Shown here piece after piece: positions 2,415 through 52,482 of a DNA stretch of 64,000 nt (its first letter is position 1; the number at the start of each line of letters is the position of its first letter). The DNA is taken from contig NC_042998.1 of NCBI RefSeq assembly GCF_006345805.1, positions 184,636,001 to 184,700,000 of the forward strand. The letters run 5' to 3'. Under the pieces are notes generated by a model. That model did not search any database. It saw only the letters and a list, made by a program, of their open reading frames with translations, and was not told the DNA's origin. Both the position numbers and the translations under genes were made by a program. Source of the DNA: Octopus sinensis (taxonomy: Eukaryota).

Positions 2415-2515
2415 ATATATAAAATATTATTCGAGACAAAACCACTATTTTGCAAAACAAACAAGGAAAGACTTAATCAATACATAAAATTTTAATAAAT
2501 AGTCAAAAAAAACCG

Positions 2516-2558
2516 CCACTACAATCGTTTCTTGTCTTGATCGACAATCTTCAGGTGG
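2516..2558 (-). ncRNA. Minimal type I hammerhead ribozyme motif
   Basis: Reverse complement of the motif at 2630-2672. Confidence 0.8.
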
Positions 2559-2629
2559 ACTTCCAATAATTCAATAATTCAGTGTCAAATTATGAAGACT
2601 TCATAATTTGACACTGAATTATTGGAAGT

Positions 2630-2672
2630 CCACCTGAAGATTGTCGATCAAGACAAGAAACGATTGTAGTGG
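2630..2672 (+). ncRNA. Minimal type I hammerhead ribozyme motif
   Basis: ccac CTGAAGA ttgtc-gatcaa-gacaa GAAAC gatt GTA gtgg: stem I ccac/gtgg, complete core, 5-bp stem II, minimal stem III, GUA cleavage triplet. Confidence 0.85.
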
Positions 2673-2846
2673 CGGTTTTTTTGACTATTTATTAAAATTT
2701 TATGTATTGATTAAGTATTTCCTTGTTTGTTTTGCAAAATAGTGGTTTTGTCTCGAATAATATTTTATAATATTTTACTATAAAATCGATTTAATCCTAA
2801 ATCTGATTTTTTCCCTGTAAATTTGGATTTATTCCCTAATATTTAT

Positions 2847-2927
<81 letters not shown>

Positions 2928-4699: not shown

Positions 4700-4908
4700 A
4701 TATACATACATACATACACACATACATACATATATACATACATACATACATACATACATACATACATACACACACACATACATACATACATACATACATA
4801 CATACATACATACATACATACATACACACACATACATACATGCATACATACATACATACATACATACATACATACATACATACATACATACATACATACA
4901 TACATACA

Positions 4909-4956
<48 letters not shown>

Positions 4957-4968
4957 GATAGATAGATA
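4700..4968. repeat. (TACA)n/(TA)n/(GATA)n microsatellite, one of dozens in the window
   Basis: Directly visible. Confidence 0.95.
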
Positions 4969-5312
4969 AGATAATGTACGCCTGCTGCTGAATAAAGAAA
5001 CTGATATTGTACACCACTAGAATAGTGCTAAACATTACAGAATATAGGGAATTGCAATATTATACTAATTATAGTTAGTATATTTAATTCAGCACAAAGG
5101 AGGAATATTTATAATTATATATGTCGACCAACATTCTCTCACATATACATACATAAATACATACATGCGTACATACATATATATACATATATAAACACGC
5201 ACGCATACAGCCACACAGATTAATCTAATTTATAAAATTACAGAAAATATAGCTCTTCGTAAATATTTTGGTTCTCTTTCACGTTGTTTCCGTAATAGCA
5301 ATCATACCATAT

Positions 5313-8130: not shown

Positions 8131-8752
8131 TACTTTTCTCATTATAAATGTCCTAGAGGTTTCACACTACTTTGGCTTTGTTGTCTCATTTTATTGAACA
8201 TATGCACGCTCACACACGACCCGCATTATACTCCTCACTCATACTGTTATCGATCCGGGAGTTTAATAGTGGTTCTTCCGTAACCTTTACTAACTTTTGG
8301 GTCTTCTAGATACAAAACTTCTCTCTCTCTCTCTCTCTCGCACACACACATATATATGCACACTATAACATATATATATATTAATATATATATATATATA
8401 ATATATATATAAAATTTGTTATTATTTCTGCCTAGTTGAATGACCACATAGAGGCTTTTTCGTTAACTCCGTATGAGGCTGAGTATAGTAATAACTTCCT
8501 AATTGTTTTTATCCTGTTGATTTCACAGAAGAATTTAAAAATTCAGCCCTACTGCTTAATGAAACATTTTATTTATTGTAGGGTAGTACTTCTCCAGAGA
8601 GGAGAGAAAAATGAGAAAGGGAGACGGGGAGGGAAAGATAATAAACAAAAAGATAGATAGATAAAGAGTAAGAGAGGGGAAAGGGAGAGAGAGAAAGAGA
8701 GAGATGTGTGAAACAGGGAATGAGAGAAAAGGTAAGCAGTGAAATACTTAGA

Positions 8753-8805
<53 letters not shown>

Positions 8806-8988
8806 TATTATATATAATATATTAGGGAATAAATCCAAATTTACAGGGAAAAAATCAGATTTAGGATTAATCCAATTTTATAGTAAAATATTATAAAATA
8901 TTATTAGAGACAAAACCACTATTTTGCAAAACAAACAAGGAAAGACTTAATCAATACATAAAATTTTAATAAATAGTCAAAAAAACCG

Positions 8989-9031
8989 CCACTACAATTG
9001 TTTCTTGTCTTGATCGACAATCTTCAGGTGG
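8989..9031 (-). ncRNA. Minimal type I hammerhead motif
   Basis: Reverse complement of ccac CTGAAGA ttgtcgatcaagacaa GAAAC aatt GTA gtgg. Confidence 0.8.
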
Positions 9032-9174
9032 ACTTCCAATAAGTCAGTTTCAAATTATGAATTAAAAATTCAGCCCTACTGCTTAATGAAACATTTTATT
9101 TATTGTAGGGTAGTACAATTTACTCTTAGCATTTCTGAGAAAAACTTCATAATTTGAACTGACTTATTGGAAGT

Positions 9175-9217
9175 CCACCTGAAGATTGTCGATCAAGACA
9201 AGAAACAATTGTAGTGG
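9175..9217 (+). ncRNA. Minimal type I hammerhead motif
   Basis: ccac CTGAAGA ttgtc gatcaa gacaa GAAAC aatt GTA gtgg; stem III is the palindrome ACAATTGT. Confidence 0.85.
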
Positions 9218-9385
9218 CGGTTTTTTGACTATTATTAAAATTTTATGTATTGATTAAGTCTTTCCTTGTTTTGTTTTGCAAAATAGTGGTTTTGTCTCTA
9301 ATAATATTTTATATATATATATATGTATATATATACATACATACATTATATATCATATATAATATATATATATATATATATTATA

Positions 9386-9422
<37 letters not shown>

Positions 9423-9433
9423 ATATATATATA

Positions 9434-9498
<65 letters not shown>

Positions 9499-9571
9499 CA
9501 TGCATATATATATATTGCTAGATAGGGTTGGAAATTGGTGCTATGTTAAAAATGAACGCAATATTTTTTTA

Positions 9572-10119
9572 GGATCTTTACCTTTTGACCGACAGATTTA
9601 AAAAATAATTTTTTGTAACCAAACACTTTCAAACTTCGAACACTGGTAGAATGTGCCATATAAAACATCTTTTACTCTTAGCATTTCTGAGAAAAACTTA
9701 TATTTAGGATGTTATTTCATGTTAAAGTTGTTGTATTTCGGTAATTTCAACCAATCAATGGCGTGTATTCAGCTGAATAGAATTACTACCGTTGTTTGTC
9801 AACAACAACTATCGGTGGTGTATTTTTCGTTTGTCACTGTTATTTATTACAGCGCTCGTGCGTTTGTTTTGGTTTTTGCTTTAAGGTTTTAGGGTTAGGG
9901 TTAAGGATTTTTATTCAGCTGAATACACGTTATTAATTGGATGAAATTACCGAAATACTACAACTTTAACGTGAAATAACTTCCTAAATATAAGCTTTTC
10001 TCAAAAATGCTAAGAGTAAAAGATGTTTTATACGACACATACTACTAGTGTCCGAAGTTTGAAAGCGTTTAGTTACGAAAAATTATTTTAAAAATCTGTC
10101 GGTCAAAAGGTAAAGATCC
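9572..10119. mobile_element. Mutator-like (MULE) MITE/foldback
   Basis: ~210-bp TIRs starting GGATCTTTACCTTTTGACCGACAGA and ending TCTGTCGGTCAAAAGGTAAAGATCC; 9-bp TSD ATTTTTTTA at 9563-9571 and 10120-10128. Confidence 0.85.
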
Positions 10120-22818: not shown

Positions 22819-22918
22819 NNNNNNNNNNNNNNNNNNNNNNNNNNNNNNNNNNNNNNNNNNNNNNNNNNNNNNNNNNNNNNNNNNNNNNNNNNNNNNNNNN
22901 NNNNNNNNNNNNNNNNNN
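22819..22918. other. Assembly gap (100 N)
   Basis: Run of N. Confidence 1.
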
Positions 22919-34473: not shown

Positions 34474-34659
34474 GTAGGTCCCGGGTTGATTCGGGGTTAA
34501 CCACAGTAAATAAGGTACTCAATACATAGCAGAGTAAAATTAATTTATTATATAGAAGGAGCTTCTACAGGACTAGAACTGTTTCATTCAAGAGAAATCT
34601 TCAGGAAGCTTCCTGAAGATTTCTCTTGAATGAAACAGTTCTAGTCCTGTAGAAGCTCC

Positions 34660-40175: not shown

Positions 40176-40538
40176 AGTACGTACATACATACACACTCAA
40201 ACCAAATACCTGCAGACATACACGTGCATACAGACTCGTACACAGACTCACACACAACACAAAGAAATATTACAAATCGTCATTAGAAAAGAAATATATA
40301 TATATACAGGTAGGTACCTTTCAACCACTCTAGTTAATCCAAGTTATGACTAACCGCATCGAATTGTAAGGAAAAACTTAGGACTATTTGAGGCAAACAA
40401 CCCCAATGTGTTTCATCTGATGGGTAAATCCTGGGTTCGCTATCGTTGGATTATAAACAGATCATATATATATATATATATATATGAAAAAACAAGTCAA
40501 AAATAGAAAATGCTAAGATGATTTTATAATGAACCTTT

Positions 40539-40576
40539 CAGTACCGGTTTCGGTCATTTTGAGACCTTTTCAACTG
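40539..40576 (-). ncRNA. Minimal hammerhead motif with U3-A8 core
   Basis: Reverse complement reads cag TTGAAAA ggtc-tcaaaat-gacc GAAAC cg GTA ctg. Confidence 0.7.
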
Positions 40577-40845
40577 TAACGATTAAATAATTAAATTTAG
40601 AAAAATTAGAAGAAAAGTTTTTTTTTAAAAATATTTCTGTAGTAGTGTTCAGATATAAGTAGCATTCTGCCTTTCTCTGACTCCCTGTTTGCACTTGTGT
40701 GTTCGAGGTCGACCTCGAACACACAAGTGCAAACAAGGGAGTCAGAGAAAGGCAGAATGCTACTTATATCTGAACACTACTACAGAAATATTTAAAAAAA
40801 AAAACTTTTCTTCTAATTTTTCTAAATTTAATTATTTAATCGTTA

Positions 40846-40883
40846 CAGTTGAAAAGGTCTCAAAATGACCGAAACCGGTACTA
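40846..40883 (+). ncRNA. Minimal hammerhead motif with U3-A8 core (one stem I mismatch)
   Basis: cag TTGAAAA ggtc tcaaaat gacc GAAAC cg GTA cta. Confidence 0.65.
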
Positions 40884-40969
40884 AAAGGTTCACTATAAAA
40901 TCATCTTAGCATTTTCTATTTTTGACTTGTTTTTTCATATATATCAACTCGTGTGTTCCTTCCACCCTT

Positions 40970-49543: not shown

Positions 49544-49748
49544 CGACGGGATTCTTTCAGTTTCCGTCTGCCAAGTCCACTCACAAGGCTTTGGTCCGCC
49601 CGAGGCTATAGTAGAAGACACTTGCACAAACCACGCAGTAAGTCTGAACCCAGAGCCATATGGTTGGTAAGCAAGCTTCTTACCACACGGTCACACCTAC
49701 GCCTATATATATATGTGTGTGTGTGTGTGTGTCTGTGTGTGTGTGTGC

Positions 49749-49790
<42 letters not shown>

Positions 49791-50012
49791 TATATATATA
49801 TACGACGGGATTCTTTCAGTTTCCGTCTGCCAAGTCCACTCACAAGGCTTTGGTCCGCCCGAGGCTATAGTAGAAGACACTTGCACAAACCACGCAGTAA
49901 GTCTGAACCCAGAGCCATATGGTTGGTAAGCAAGCTTCTTACCACACGGTCACACCTACGCCTATATATATATGTGTGTGTGTGTGTCTGTGTGTGTGTG
50001 TGCGAATATATA

Positions 50013-50579: not shown

Positions 50580-52400
50580 AATATTTTGAGAATACATTTT
50601 GTGACCGATGTTTGCAGGTAAAATTTATACTGTTGTGTCCATTAAGACATGAATTGCAAGATAGTCAAGACCTCAGTTATGCAGAAATCACACTTGTTAT
50701 GGCTTGCTTGACGTAAGTGACTATGGACCACTTGAGAGTGTAAGAAGTTGAATCAAATTTTAGTTTATTGATAAGCTGAGATAACGATGTACTTCTCGAT
50801 TTTGTTTGGGATTTGAAAATGGAGTAGTGGTTGCTTACTCTAGCTTTGAAAGTGGTGCTACATGAGCCGATATATATGTAGTTATAGTTGGCAGTTGATA
50901 CCGTACAATTATAAACGATGTTTTTTGTGAGACAGCAGTTATCTAAAGGTCAGGAAGTTGGGCGTCTACAACTAGATAGGTTTGTAGGAGGTGTTCCGGA
51001 TGAACTTGTGAACGGATTGTTATTTAGTCAGGAACCGGTGTTAGATTCGTCGTTATTGCTGGCGTTAAGATTAATATTTGTTAAGGAGTTGAGTGTGATA
51101 TTGTAGGGTTCTATGTTATGATATCTGGTATATTCTGTGTCGCTCTCTATTTATACAAGAGGTATAGTTGGGCGTTGTGGTAAATTTAAGGATCGGGTGT
51201 TAGTAGTGGAATTATAGTTGGAGTTATAGTTTTTGGTTTATACATATGGATCTGGCTGTTATGTTGAGTTAATTTATTAGATTGGAGGTTTTCTGGTTGT
51301 GGACTTCTGAGTTTCTTGTTAAGATGTCGGTTAACTCCGGCAATGTTGGTGGTGGTGGAGTAGGACAATTTTATAGATTAAATATTTTAAATATTTTTCT
51401 AAAGGGGCTAGATTTAGGGATAAGTTTTTCGAGTAGGACGAGGAAGAGTCTAGGTACTCGAGTCTGAATATTAAGGGTGAAGGAGAGGGGTGGAATCAGA
51501 TAATGTCCCGGGTTCTAGTTGTTTAATCCGATTGGGGAGGTGGGTAAATGGATGAGGATAGTGTTTACTATACGGCGGTGCGGAACTGGTTTCAGTTCCG
51601 GGTTTAGTAGAGAGAGGAGTATTCCACATGGGGATGTATTCGATTGAGCTTTTATATCCGGCACTTTGTAGGGCACAATTATGATATTCAGCATATTGAT
51701 CGAATAAATCCTTATTAGTAGATTGTGAGGAAATCCCGTAGGAAACTCTTTACACAATATATTATAGGATGGAGGGAGTGGTGGAGAAGACGTTCACGTA
51801 GTGGAGGTTTTTCCCAGGTTTGGGTAGAAGGTTTGGTTTTGCAAGCTCAAGGTTGCGTCTAAGAAATTAGCAGTTTCTTAATCTTTTTCAGGTCTGTTCG
51901 ATTTGTCGATTGCTAGAATTTTGGATTTCGAATACAGCGTCGTCTCTGAATAAACCACCGGAAATGTTAGGGACTTGTTCATGGAGACCATTAACTATGT
52001 AATCTCTTACAAGATCCGTAACTTGGGCGGAGTCACTTCCCCCATGGAACATCGAAAAAGTTGGGTGTACCCTTGTGGGTCCAGGATTTCCCATCGAACA
52101 GTATGATATTTCGGCAGGCTGCTAATATTATATCAATATCGTCGCGAGATAGGTTGGAATGGGTTTTGTCGAAGATTAGGGCCTTTTTTAGGAGAACAGG
52201 AGATATGCTGGTGTAGTATTGATCAATGTCGATTTGTATAAATTTAAAGGTGTGCTTAGAGCATAAAGAATTGAACCATTGGATAGCTTTTGTAGCTTTG
52301 GTCCAGAGTTTTAATGTAGATGTGGTGGACAGTTGGGGTATTATCCGATCGAGCATAATTTCGCTGATCTTACCTATATCGGAGCTGGAGGGGCATATGG
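50580..52400 (-). pseudogene. Penelope-like retroelement, probably Naiad-type: RT plus C-terminal GIY-YIG, frameshifted
   Basis: PSSSDIGKISEIMLDRI; IDIDQYYTSIS; FDVP.GSDSAQVTDLV; GLFRDD; NFLDATL; SSCRRPTS*PLDNCCLTKNIVYNCTV; YIGSCSTTFKARVSNH; LKWSIV. Confidence 0.85.
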
Positions 52401-52482
52401 GTGCAATAAAGAAACTAAGTAGTGATAGGAGACAAACTCAAAGACGTACGAGCGCACGCACGCACGCACACACACACACACA

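What the first reader, a model, noticed from the sequence alone, without database searches (positions are those of the whole stretch)
9062..9147. Hairpin loop built from copies of flanking genomic DNA from both sides
Seen: family A copy 1 has essentially no loop, but copy 2 has an ~85-bp loop. Positions 9062-9116 are an exact 55-bp copy of 8535-8589, about 230 bp outside the left end. Positions 9119-9147 are an exact 29-bp copy of 9671-9699, inside the neighbouring MITE about 360 bp beyond the right end. Both keep the original orientation, and the second joins the arm through a ctt microhomology. Inference: sequential template jumps onto nearby DNA, either by the RT during integration or by polymerase-theta-type repair after a break at the cruciform tip. 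It also implies the MITE was there before this event, unless another copy of that MITE was the donor.
Basis: partly seen in the sequence, partly recalled or inferred. Interest (0 to 1): 0.75.

Follow-up and report, generated by a model that had tools for sequence, protein, structure and literature searches.

The report
Flank-DNA patches joining twin Penelope cDNAs
The loop is two exact copies of neighbouring DNA sitting where the two mirror-image halves of a Penelope-type jumping gene meet, the same kind of patch recurs in about two dozen other copies of the family, and it was likely written while the two freshly made halves were being joined during insertion.

Summary
Observation confirmed: 9062-9116 = 8535-8589 (unique donor); 9119-9147 = 9671-9699, with a private variant of the adjacent, older MITE. 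The right microhomology is ACTT, at the element's commonest end point. 'Family A' is the spliced 5' leader of a Hydra-clade Penelope-like retrotransposon: a 1,816-nt GT-AG intron is missing, and a frameshifted RT/GIY-YIG master exists. It inserts as one long plus one short arm, head to head in (AT)n. Genome-wide, 53 of 611 anchor matches have long centres. Of 49 examined, 26 carry foreign DNA, and 24 of these copy their own flank (20 by a strict control): 15-330 bp, both sides, both orientations, with 3-6 nt microhomologies. Two intron-retaining copies with 0.5-2.5 kb spacers, where no cruciform tip is expected, carry such patches at the cDNA-cDNA junction. This favours integration-time joining over a later cruciform break. 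All three two-donor cases need a flank strand that simple resection would remove. The polymerase is unresolved, and no reads spanned the locus. Local templated inserts are known for LINEs. The scan noted single cases in Penelope elements of other genomes and similar stubs in this genome. The family-wide census is what is added.

The parts
8535..8589 (+). Donor 1, unique left-flank DNA, preceded by GAA-T (8531-8534), which matches the long arm's inner end
8755..8819 (.). (AT)n target tract, left side
   Evidence: sequence
8820..9061 (-). Long arm: copy of the spliced leader including the ~68-nt tail (8820-8888). Exon-2 part 8820-9040, exon-1 part 9041-9061; ends 2 nt short of the commonest end point
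8989..9031 (-). Minimal type-I hammerhead-like motif in the long arm (core, stems I and II, palindromic short helix III); read by eye, no Rfam hit
   Evidence: architecture as in PMC4209133
9062..9116 (+). Patch 1: exact 55-bp direct copy of donor 1
9117..9118 (.). Two untemplated bases between the patches
9119..9147 (+). Patch 2: exact 29-bp direct copy of donor 2, with the private C at 9135; its last 4 nt are shared with the short arm
9144..9318 (+). Short arm: copy of the spliced leader without tail. Exon-1 part 9144-9165, exon-2 part 9166-9318; reaches the commonest end point exactly
9175..9217 (+). Minimal hammerhead-like motif in the short arm
   Evidence: monomer fold no more stable than shuffles, z 0.36
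9311..9514 (.). (AT)n target tract, right side
   Evidence: sequence
9572..10119 (.). Older high-copy MITE (216-nt arms, 90% complementary) that holds donor 2
9671..9699 (+). Donor 2 in the MITE's left arm
2421..2852 (.). Family A copy 1: short arm left, long arm right, directly joined without a patch

Best explanation
The 86-bp loop is two exact copies of flanking DNA lying between two head-to-head copies of the spliced 5' leader of a Hydra-clade Penelope-like retrotransposon, and it was likely written at the moment of insertion, when the two cDNA ends had to be joined. Step 1 (shown in sequence): the arms lack the master's 1,816-nt GT-AG intron, so they passed through spliced RNA. Step 2 (inferred, by analogy with the PAc enzyme): the element's protein cuts both strands of an (AT)n tract, and each DNA end primes reverse transcription at one of two internal sites about 68 nt apart. 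This gives one long and one short cDNA, both running to the RNA 5' end. Step 3 (shown as outcomes): the two inner ends are mostly joined directly or through 1-6 nt overlaps. Step 4 (inferred): in about 4% of palindromes a cDNA 3' end first pairs through 3-6 nt with nearby chromosome DNA, is extended for tens to hundreds of bases, comes off, sometimes jumps again, and is then joined to the other arm. At this locus at least one jump must have used a flank strand that 5' resection would have removed, so the template was probably duplex (invaded flank or sister chromatid). I put a host end-joining or repair polymerase at about 60% and the element's RT at about 40%; neither was tested. The patch is likely a functionless scar.
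For: Exact, donor-specific copies. Master with motifs RIKWK, SDKT, CxCX5C and a GIY-YIG-like pair about 60 nt behind the tail, matching the Hydra description. Precise intron loss. 62 of 62 palindromes have one tail-end arm and one shorter arm; 1 of 49 had two long arms. In loopless copies the long arm keeps more of the tip in 15, the short arm in 16, equal in 8 of 39. So neither arm is simply a fold-back copy of the other. 24 of 26 foreign centres match their own flank; 20 of them beat every other locus's flank. 16 of 22 arm-adjacent junctions have 3 nt or more of overlap against 7.5% by chance. L096 (364 bp) and L261 (468 + 436 bp) carry flank copies at the junction of two long cDNAs with about 0.5 and 2.5 kb of non-palindromic spacer. 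Tip loss is not higher in patched copies: median 10 vs 14 nt, one-sided p 0.69. PAc cuts and extends both strands and starts at two sites that define the tail. Flank-derived junction inserts are reported for LINEs.
Against: No spanning reads. Patch-donor divergence (8 of 2,256) is lower than arm-arm divergence in the same class (19 of 2,862), as a later origin would predict; p 0.17, not significant. The tip-loss test is weak, because the anchors cap the loss seen. Tracts (median 156 bp) and distances (median about 260 bp) far exceed mammalian Pol theta insertions (3-30 bp, donors within about 30 bp). Misses: L077 and L084 have distant donors. L036, L094, L257 and the second piece of L079 have no close local donor. 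Symmetric tip retention could also come from later inversion of the loop between the arms. No intact master ORF was seen, and Pfam did not recognise its pieces.
Confidence: 0.74

Rival explanations
1. The palindrome inserted with a plain junction; later its cruciform tip broke and was repaired by polymerase-theta-type synthesis on nearby DNA.
For: Near-perfect AT-rich palindromes are break-prone (recalled). Patch-donor divergence is about half of arm-arm divergence, 0.35% vs 0.66%, not significant. Short iterated inserts at tips (L059, L061, L072) look like Pol theta work.
Against: Patches sit exactly at the cDNA-cDNA junction in L096 and L261, where the spacer is 0.5-2.5 kb. No extra tip loss in patched copies. 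6 of 22 patched copies keep an arm to its commonest end point, including this one.
Confidence: 0.13
2. One RT makes the long cDNA, jumps onto flank DNA on each side in turn, then folds back on its own cDNA and copies it to make the short arm (self-priming).
For: The two arms never disagree at six internal segregating sites in 83 palindromes and share 7 private variants. At this locus both patches can be read from one continuous bottom strand. Self-priming was proposed for Penelope palindromes.
Against: In 16 of 39 loopless and 7 of 22 patched copies the short arm holds tip bases that the long arm lacks, and a short arm cannot template the tail. Fold-back does not explain the fixed start of the short arm. 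Arm concordance is also expected from one RNA or one source locus copied twice, from gene conversion, or from polishing.
Confidence: 0.09
3. The loop is an assembly or polishing artefact at a hairpin.
For: Palindromes are hard to assemble, the arms show homopolymer indels, and no reads were available.
Against: 24 independent loci with different donors, sides and orientations. Microhomology enrichment at the junctions. Substitutions between patch and donor at 6 of 17 loci. Untemplated bases at this locus.
Confidence: 0.03

Closest known systems
Hydra clade of C-terminal EN+ Penelope-like elements (Craig et al. 2021, PMC8557442; passages and section 11 read)
   Same: DKT and CxCX5C motifs, C-terminal GIY-YIG-like region, hammerhead-like motif, (TA)n targeting, inverted 5'-truncated partner, one-sided tail, intron in the 5' leader.
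   Different: The N-terminal motif reads RIKWK rather than RWK. The tail is about 68 nt rather than 30-40 and the intron 1.8 kb. Most copies seen here are only spliced-leader stubs. Flank-derived junction patches were not mentioned in the passages read.
PAc (Poseidon, Anolis) in vitro mechanism (Frangieh et al. 2024, PMC11167929; parts 1-2 of 4 read)
   Same: Both strands cut and extended, AT-rich target, two internal RT starts that define the tail.
   Different: Different clade. In PAc the ORF begins inside the hammerhead; here it begins behind the tail. The joining step was not studied there.
5' extra nucleotides of zebrafish L2-clade LINEs (Yamaguchi et al. 2014, PMC4245944; passages)
   Same: Junction DNA copied from flanking sequence while the insert is being joined.
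   Different: There it is a few nucleotides at a cDNA-to-genome junction; here 15-470 bp at a cDNA-to-cDNA junction.
L1 templated insertions and twin priming (bioRxiv 10.1101/2024.08.27.596794, passages, supplement closed; PMC11702581, passages)
   Same: Genomic segments under about 250 bp duplicated into the insert during integration; twin-primed ends joined by microhomology.
   Different: L1 donors lie within 15 bp of the site (22 cases; 3,598 insertions were examined). Here donors lie 29 bp to 3.2 kb away, on both strands and both sides. L1 twin-primed arms do not copy the same RNA stretch twice.
Pol theta templated insertions (TINS; Carvajal-Garcia et al. 2020, PMC7165422; passages)
   Same: Direct and inverse repeats of flanking DNA, short microhomologies, several rounds, AT-rich context.
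   Different: TINS are 3-30 bp from within about 30 bp and follow resected-strand geometry. These patches are about ten times longer and farther away, and the two-donor cases break that geometry.

Membership tests
Hydra-clade Penelope-like element | Single ORF with RT and C-terminal GIY-YIG, no N-terminal EN | tested here: met
   Master copies L242-L244 and L258 show RT motifs, then a VVYK..AVYIG region. Frameshifted in the assembly; no Pfam hit on four pieces.
Hydra-clade Penelope-like element | DKG changed to DKT; linker CxCX5C | tested here: met
   SDKT and CTCRDKSNC in L243, L244; the linker also in L258
Hydra-clade Penelope-like element | N-terminal RWK motif | tested here: inconclusive
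   RIKWK at the expected place; no alignment to Hydra references
Hydra-clade Penelope-like element | Phylogenetic placement of the RT | not tested
   No reference Hydra proteins were fetched
Hydra-clade Penelope-like element | Hammerhead motif in the pLTR | tested here: inconclusive
   Core, stems I and II and a palindromic helix III seen by eye. No Rfam hit. Activity untested.
Hydra-clade Penelope-like element | (TA)n targeting, inverted partner, one-sided tail | tested here: met
Pol theta TINS | Insert repeats flanking DNA, with microhomology | tested here: met
Pol theta TINS | Tract 3-30 bp, donor within about 30 bp of the break | tested here: not met
   Median 156 bp; median distance about 260 bp from the element end
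Pol theta TINS | Dependence on POLQ | not testable with these tools
   Needs genetics
Integration-time templated insertion of retrotransposons (LINE type) | Insert lies at the junction made during integration and copies DNA near the site | tested here: met
Integration-time templated insertion of retrotransposons (LINE type) | Seen in de novo events, so timing is certain | not testable with these tools
   One assembly only; timing is inferred

The most novel reading that the evidence does not exclude
The patches record the missing last step of Penelope integration. Two independently primed cDNAs end up with free 3' ends that invade intact duplex DNA up to several kb away, on either strand, and sometimes other RNAs, before they are joined. 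The element's telomerase-related RT, not a host polymerase, writes hundreds of bases at each jump. Penelope insertion would then be a routine source of local duplications of 0.1-1 kb.
Probability: 0.25. Interest if true: 0.7.

Novelty: new variant of a known kind. Interest (0 to 1): 0.42.

Why it matters
How Penelope-like elements form their inverted structures is stated as open in PMC8557442 and PMC3846280. A young family with hundreds of short palindromes gives a natural census of the joining step. Either arm can keep the tip, the join uses short overlaps, and about 4% capture local DNA over distances that do not fit the Pol theta insertions described in mammalian cells. This favours twin priming plus end joining over self-priming. 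It also gives a readout (patch rate, length, strand) for tests with and without POLQ, or with purified protein. The single locus is a harmless scar of a known kind.

Tried and rejected
Reads: four runs holding the repeat gave no cover of the loop, and four others no cover of the unique left flank; uninformative. Rfam found no hammerhead family, and the monomer fold was not significant. Two other Penelope-like RT queries were tried as routes to the autonomous partner. The young 811-aa family found that way has the same inverted layout but no shared leader, so it was rejected as the partner. A cap-derived extra G at the tips was dropped, because the junctions that suggested it are explained by the other arm's bases. 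Poly(A)-mRNA capture at L084 was rejected because the T run is genomic. My first exact-match script missed long donors through a complexity filter and was replaced by BLAST. Arm-arm divergence is a poor clock (possible conversion or polishing). Paper searches for flank-derived DNA at Penelope junctions listed none, but the library lacks most subscription journals and one search returned only unrelated papers. One primary LINE paper was not held.

Full report
Observation. Both copies are exact and direct: 9062-9116 = 8535-8589, 231 bp outside the left end, and 9119-9147 = 9671-9699, 353 bp outside the right end. Donor 1 is unique in the genome G000, 2.72 Gb. The 29-mer lies in a high-copy MITE family (3,628 candidates; best other copies 79-93% alike). 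The insert carries a T-to-C variant found in the adjacent left arm, in none of 45 arms from 29 other MITE loci, and not in the MITE's own right arm. The exact 29-mer occurs at 5 places genome-wide. The adjacent MITE is therefore the donor with high odds, and it was there, already mutated, before the event. Junctions: GAA overlap plus a one-T slip on the left, two untemplated bases in the middle, and a 4-nt ACTT overlap on the right.

What family A is. The best copies are mostly 98-100% alike and sit in (AT)n as a long arm (about 243 nt) facing a short arm that starts near position 70. All 62 palindromes measured have one tail-end arm and one shorter arm; 1 of 49 in another set had two long arms. 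Longer copies show that the short form lacks a 1,816-nt GT-AG segment exactly, so it passed through spliced RNA. The commonest inner end lies at an initiator-like TCACT motif, which I infer to be the transcription start; some arms run on upstream of it. Each arm holds a minimal hammerhead-like motif read by eye (compare PMC4209133, passages); Rfam does not report it. A search with intron sequence led to master copies. Their ORF begins about 60 nt behind the tail and shows RIKWK, SDKT, a CxCX5C linker and a GIY-YIG-like pair, frameshifted in the assembly. These fit the Hydra clade (PMC8557442 section 11), a lead I took from earlier notes of this scan and checked by motif only.

Census. An exact anchor pair finds 558 matches with centres of 1-75 nt and 53 with 76-400 nt. 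Of the 53, 50 were listed, making 49 loci with this one; all 49 were analysed with about 4.6 kb of flank on each side. By eye, 23 centres are element sequence (intron, upstream region, arm duplications), simple repeat, or host-like sequence present in both arms; 26 hold foreign DNA. Of those 26, 24 match their own flank. Twenty have a longer exact match to their own flank than to any other locus's flank (a trivial 12-bp win at L050 is not counted). The other four (L065, L072, L073, L083) are short or low in complexity. In 17 loci that I chose as unambiguous, 18 tracts run 15-326 bp (median 156), 29-1,780 bp from the element end (median about 260), with 8 substitutions in 2,256 bp. Donors lie on both sides and in both orientations. 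16 of 22 arm-adjacent junctions (16 of all 34) overlap by 3 nt or more against 7.5% by chance. The rate is about 4% of anchor matches; exact anchors and the 400-nt cap make this approximate. Misses: L084 copies a unique site on another contig, downstream of a G-protein-gamma-like ORF. L077 copies a 535-bp tandem repeat family with no close copy within about 24 kb. Two further loops (L036, L094) and the second piece of L079 have no convincing local donor.

Timing. Of 13 long, intron-retaining loci examined, 12 had an arm pair and 3 had non-master DNA inside. L096 has a 364-bp direct copy from 300 bp away. L261 has a 468-bp direct copy from about 3.2 kb away followed by a 436-bp inverted copy from 281 bp away. 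L257 has 213 bp without a close local donor. In L096 and L261 the patch sits where the two cDNAs meet, although about 0.5 and 2.5 kb of non-palindromic spacer leave no cruciform tip there. Patched short palindromes have lost no more tip sequence than unpatched ones: median 10 vs 14 nt, n 22 vs 39, one row with extended arms dropped; the 40 unpatched loci were 40 of the 50 listed. Against this, patch-donor divergence is about half of arm-arm divergence (0.35% vs 0.66%, p 0.17). I put integration-time origin well ahead, but it is inferred.

Mechanism. PAc protein cuts and extends both target strands and starts at two sites that define the tail (PMC11167929, parts 1-2 of 4). This fits the long-plus-short layout. 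Either arm may keep more of the tip (15 vs 16 of 39), which argues for two cDNA ends joined afterwards, not for fold-back. The arms agree at all six internal segregating sites in 83 palindromes, so both probably come from one RNA or one source locus; conversion or polishing could also cause this. Strand logic, by inference: after 5' resection only the left top and right bottom strands are exposed. The order long arm, left donor (direct), right donor (direct), short arm needs at least one copy from the other strands. The same holds for L088 and L261. The template was therefore probably duplex flank or the sister chromatid. Short iterated inserts at some tips look like Pol theta, but tract length and distance exceed mammalian TINS (PMC7165422, passages). 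Distant donors that may be RNAs (L077, L084, and the intron-like piece in L062) hint at the RT. I put the host at about 60% and the RT at about 40%.

Comparison and novelty. Flank-derived junction DNA is reported for L2-clade LINEs (PMC4245944, passages) and for L1 (PMC11702581 and bioRxiv 2024.08.27.596794, passages). Inverted pLTRs with a one-sided tail are standard for Penelope elements (PMC3846280, passages; PMC8557442, passages). My searches listed no paper on such patches in Penelope elements, in a library that lacks most subscription journals. Earlier notes of this scan describe similar twin-primed stubs in this genome and single patched Penelope palindromes in other genomes; they are unchecked and are not counted as support. 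The locus is an ordinary scar. The family-wide rate, the long-spacer control and the strand geometry make it a new variant of a known kind, with moderate interest. No read support could be obtained.

Noticed in passing
L101:3451-6220 (G000:C5, about 131.87 Mb): 2.8-kb palindrome whose two arms each carry about 1.2 kb of non-element sequence ahead of the family A leader. Its end reads like the N-terminus of an ABCA-type transporter (resemblance recalled, not tested), suggesting a host transcript spliced onto the element and copied twice.
   Followed up: partly
L074, L075, L076, centres near 4780-5010: Palindromes in which host-like sequence joins exon 2 of the leader at the splice-acceptor position in both arms; possible exon capture by splicing.
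   Followed up: no
L096, L243; variants in L056, L073, L089: Tip 'subfamilies' partly reflect splicing: a variant 4 nt longer fits a second donor site, and another set retains the intron. The intron is built of roughly 245-bp subrepeats.
   Followed up: partly
L062:4846-5063: Two spliced arms joined by about 170 bp that resembles the element's own intron repeats (87% to one master copy); possible jump onto unspliced RNA.
   Followed up: partly
L228-L237, L240, L241: A second young Penelope-like family, with 700-920 aa open frames (811 aa in most; RVT_1 hit), also inserts in (AT)n with an inverted truncated partner; its leader is unrelated to family A.
   Followed up: partly
L284-L289: Young 535-bp tandem repeat family (97-98%) often arranged with one inverted copy; looks like another small retroelement.
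   Followed up: no
window 40495-40927 and 34561-34656: Two further spacerless palindromes in (AT)n, 434 bp (97.7%) and 96 bp (100%), of unrelated sequence.
   Followed up: no
window 52036-52437 (-): Degraded RT fragment that resembles the family A master's motif region by eye.
   Followed up: no
window 49551-49700 and 49810-49959: Exact 150-bp direct duplication of a common repeat between microsatellites; recent duplication or assembly artefact.
   Followed up: no
window 22819-22918: 100-N assembly gap.
   Followed up: no
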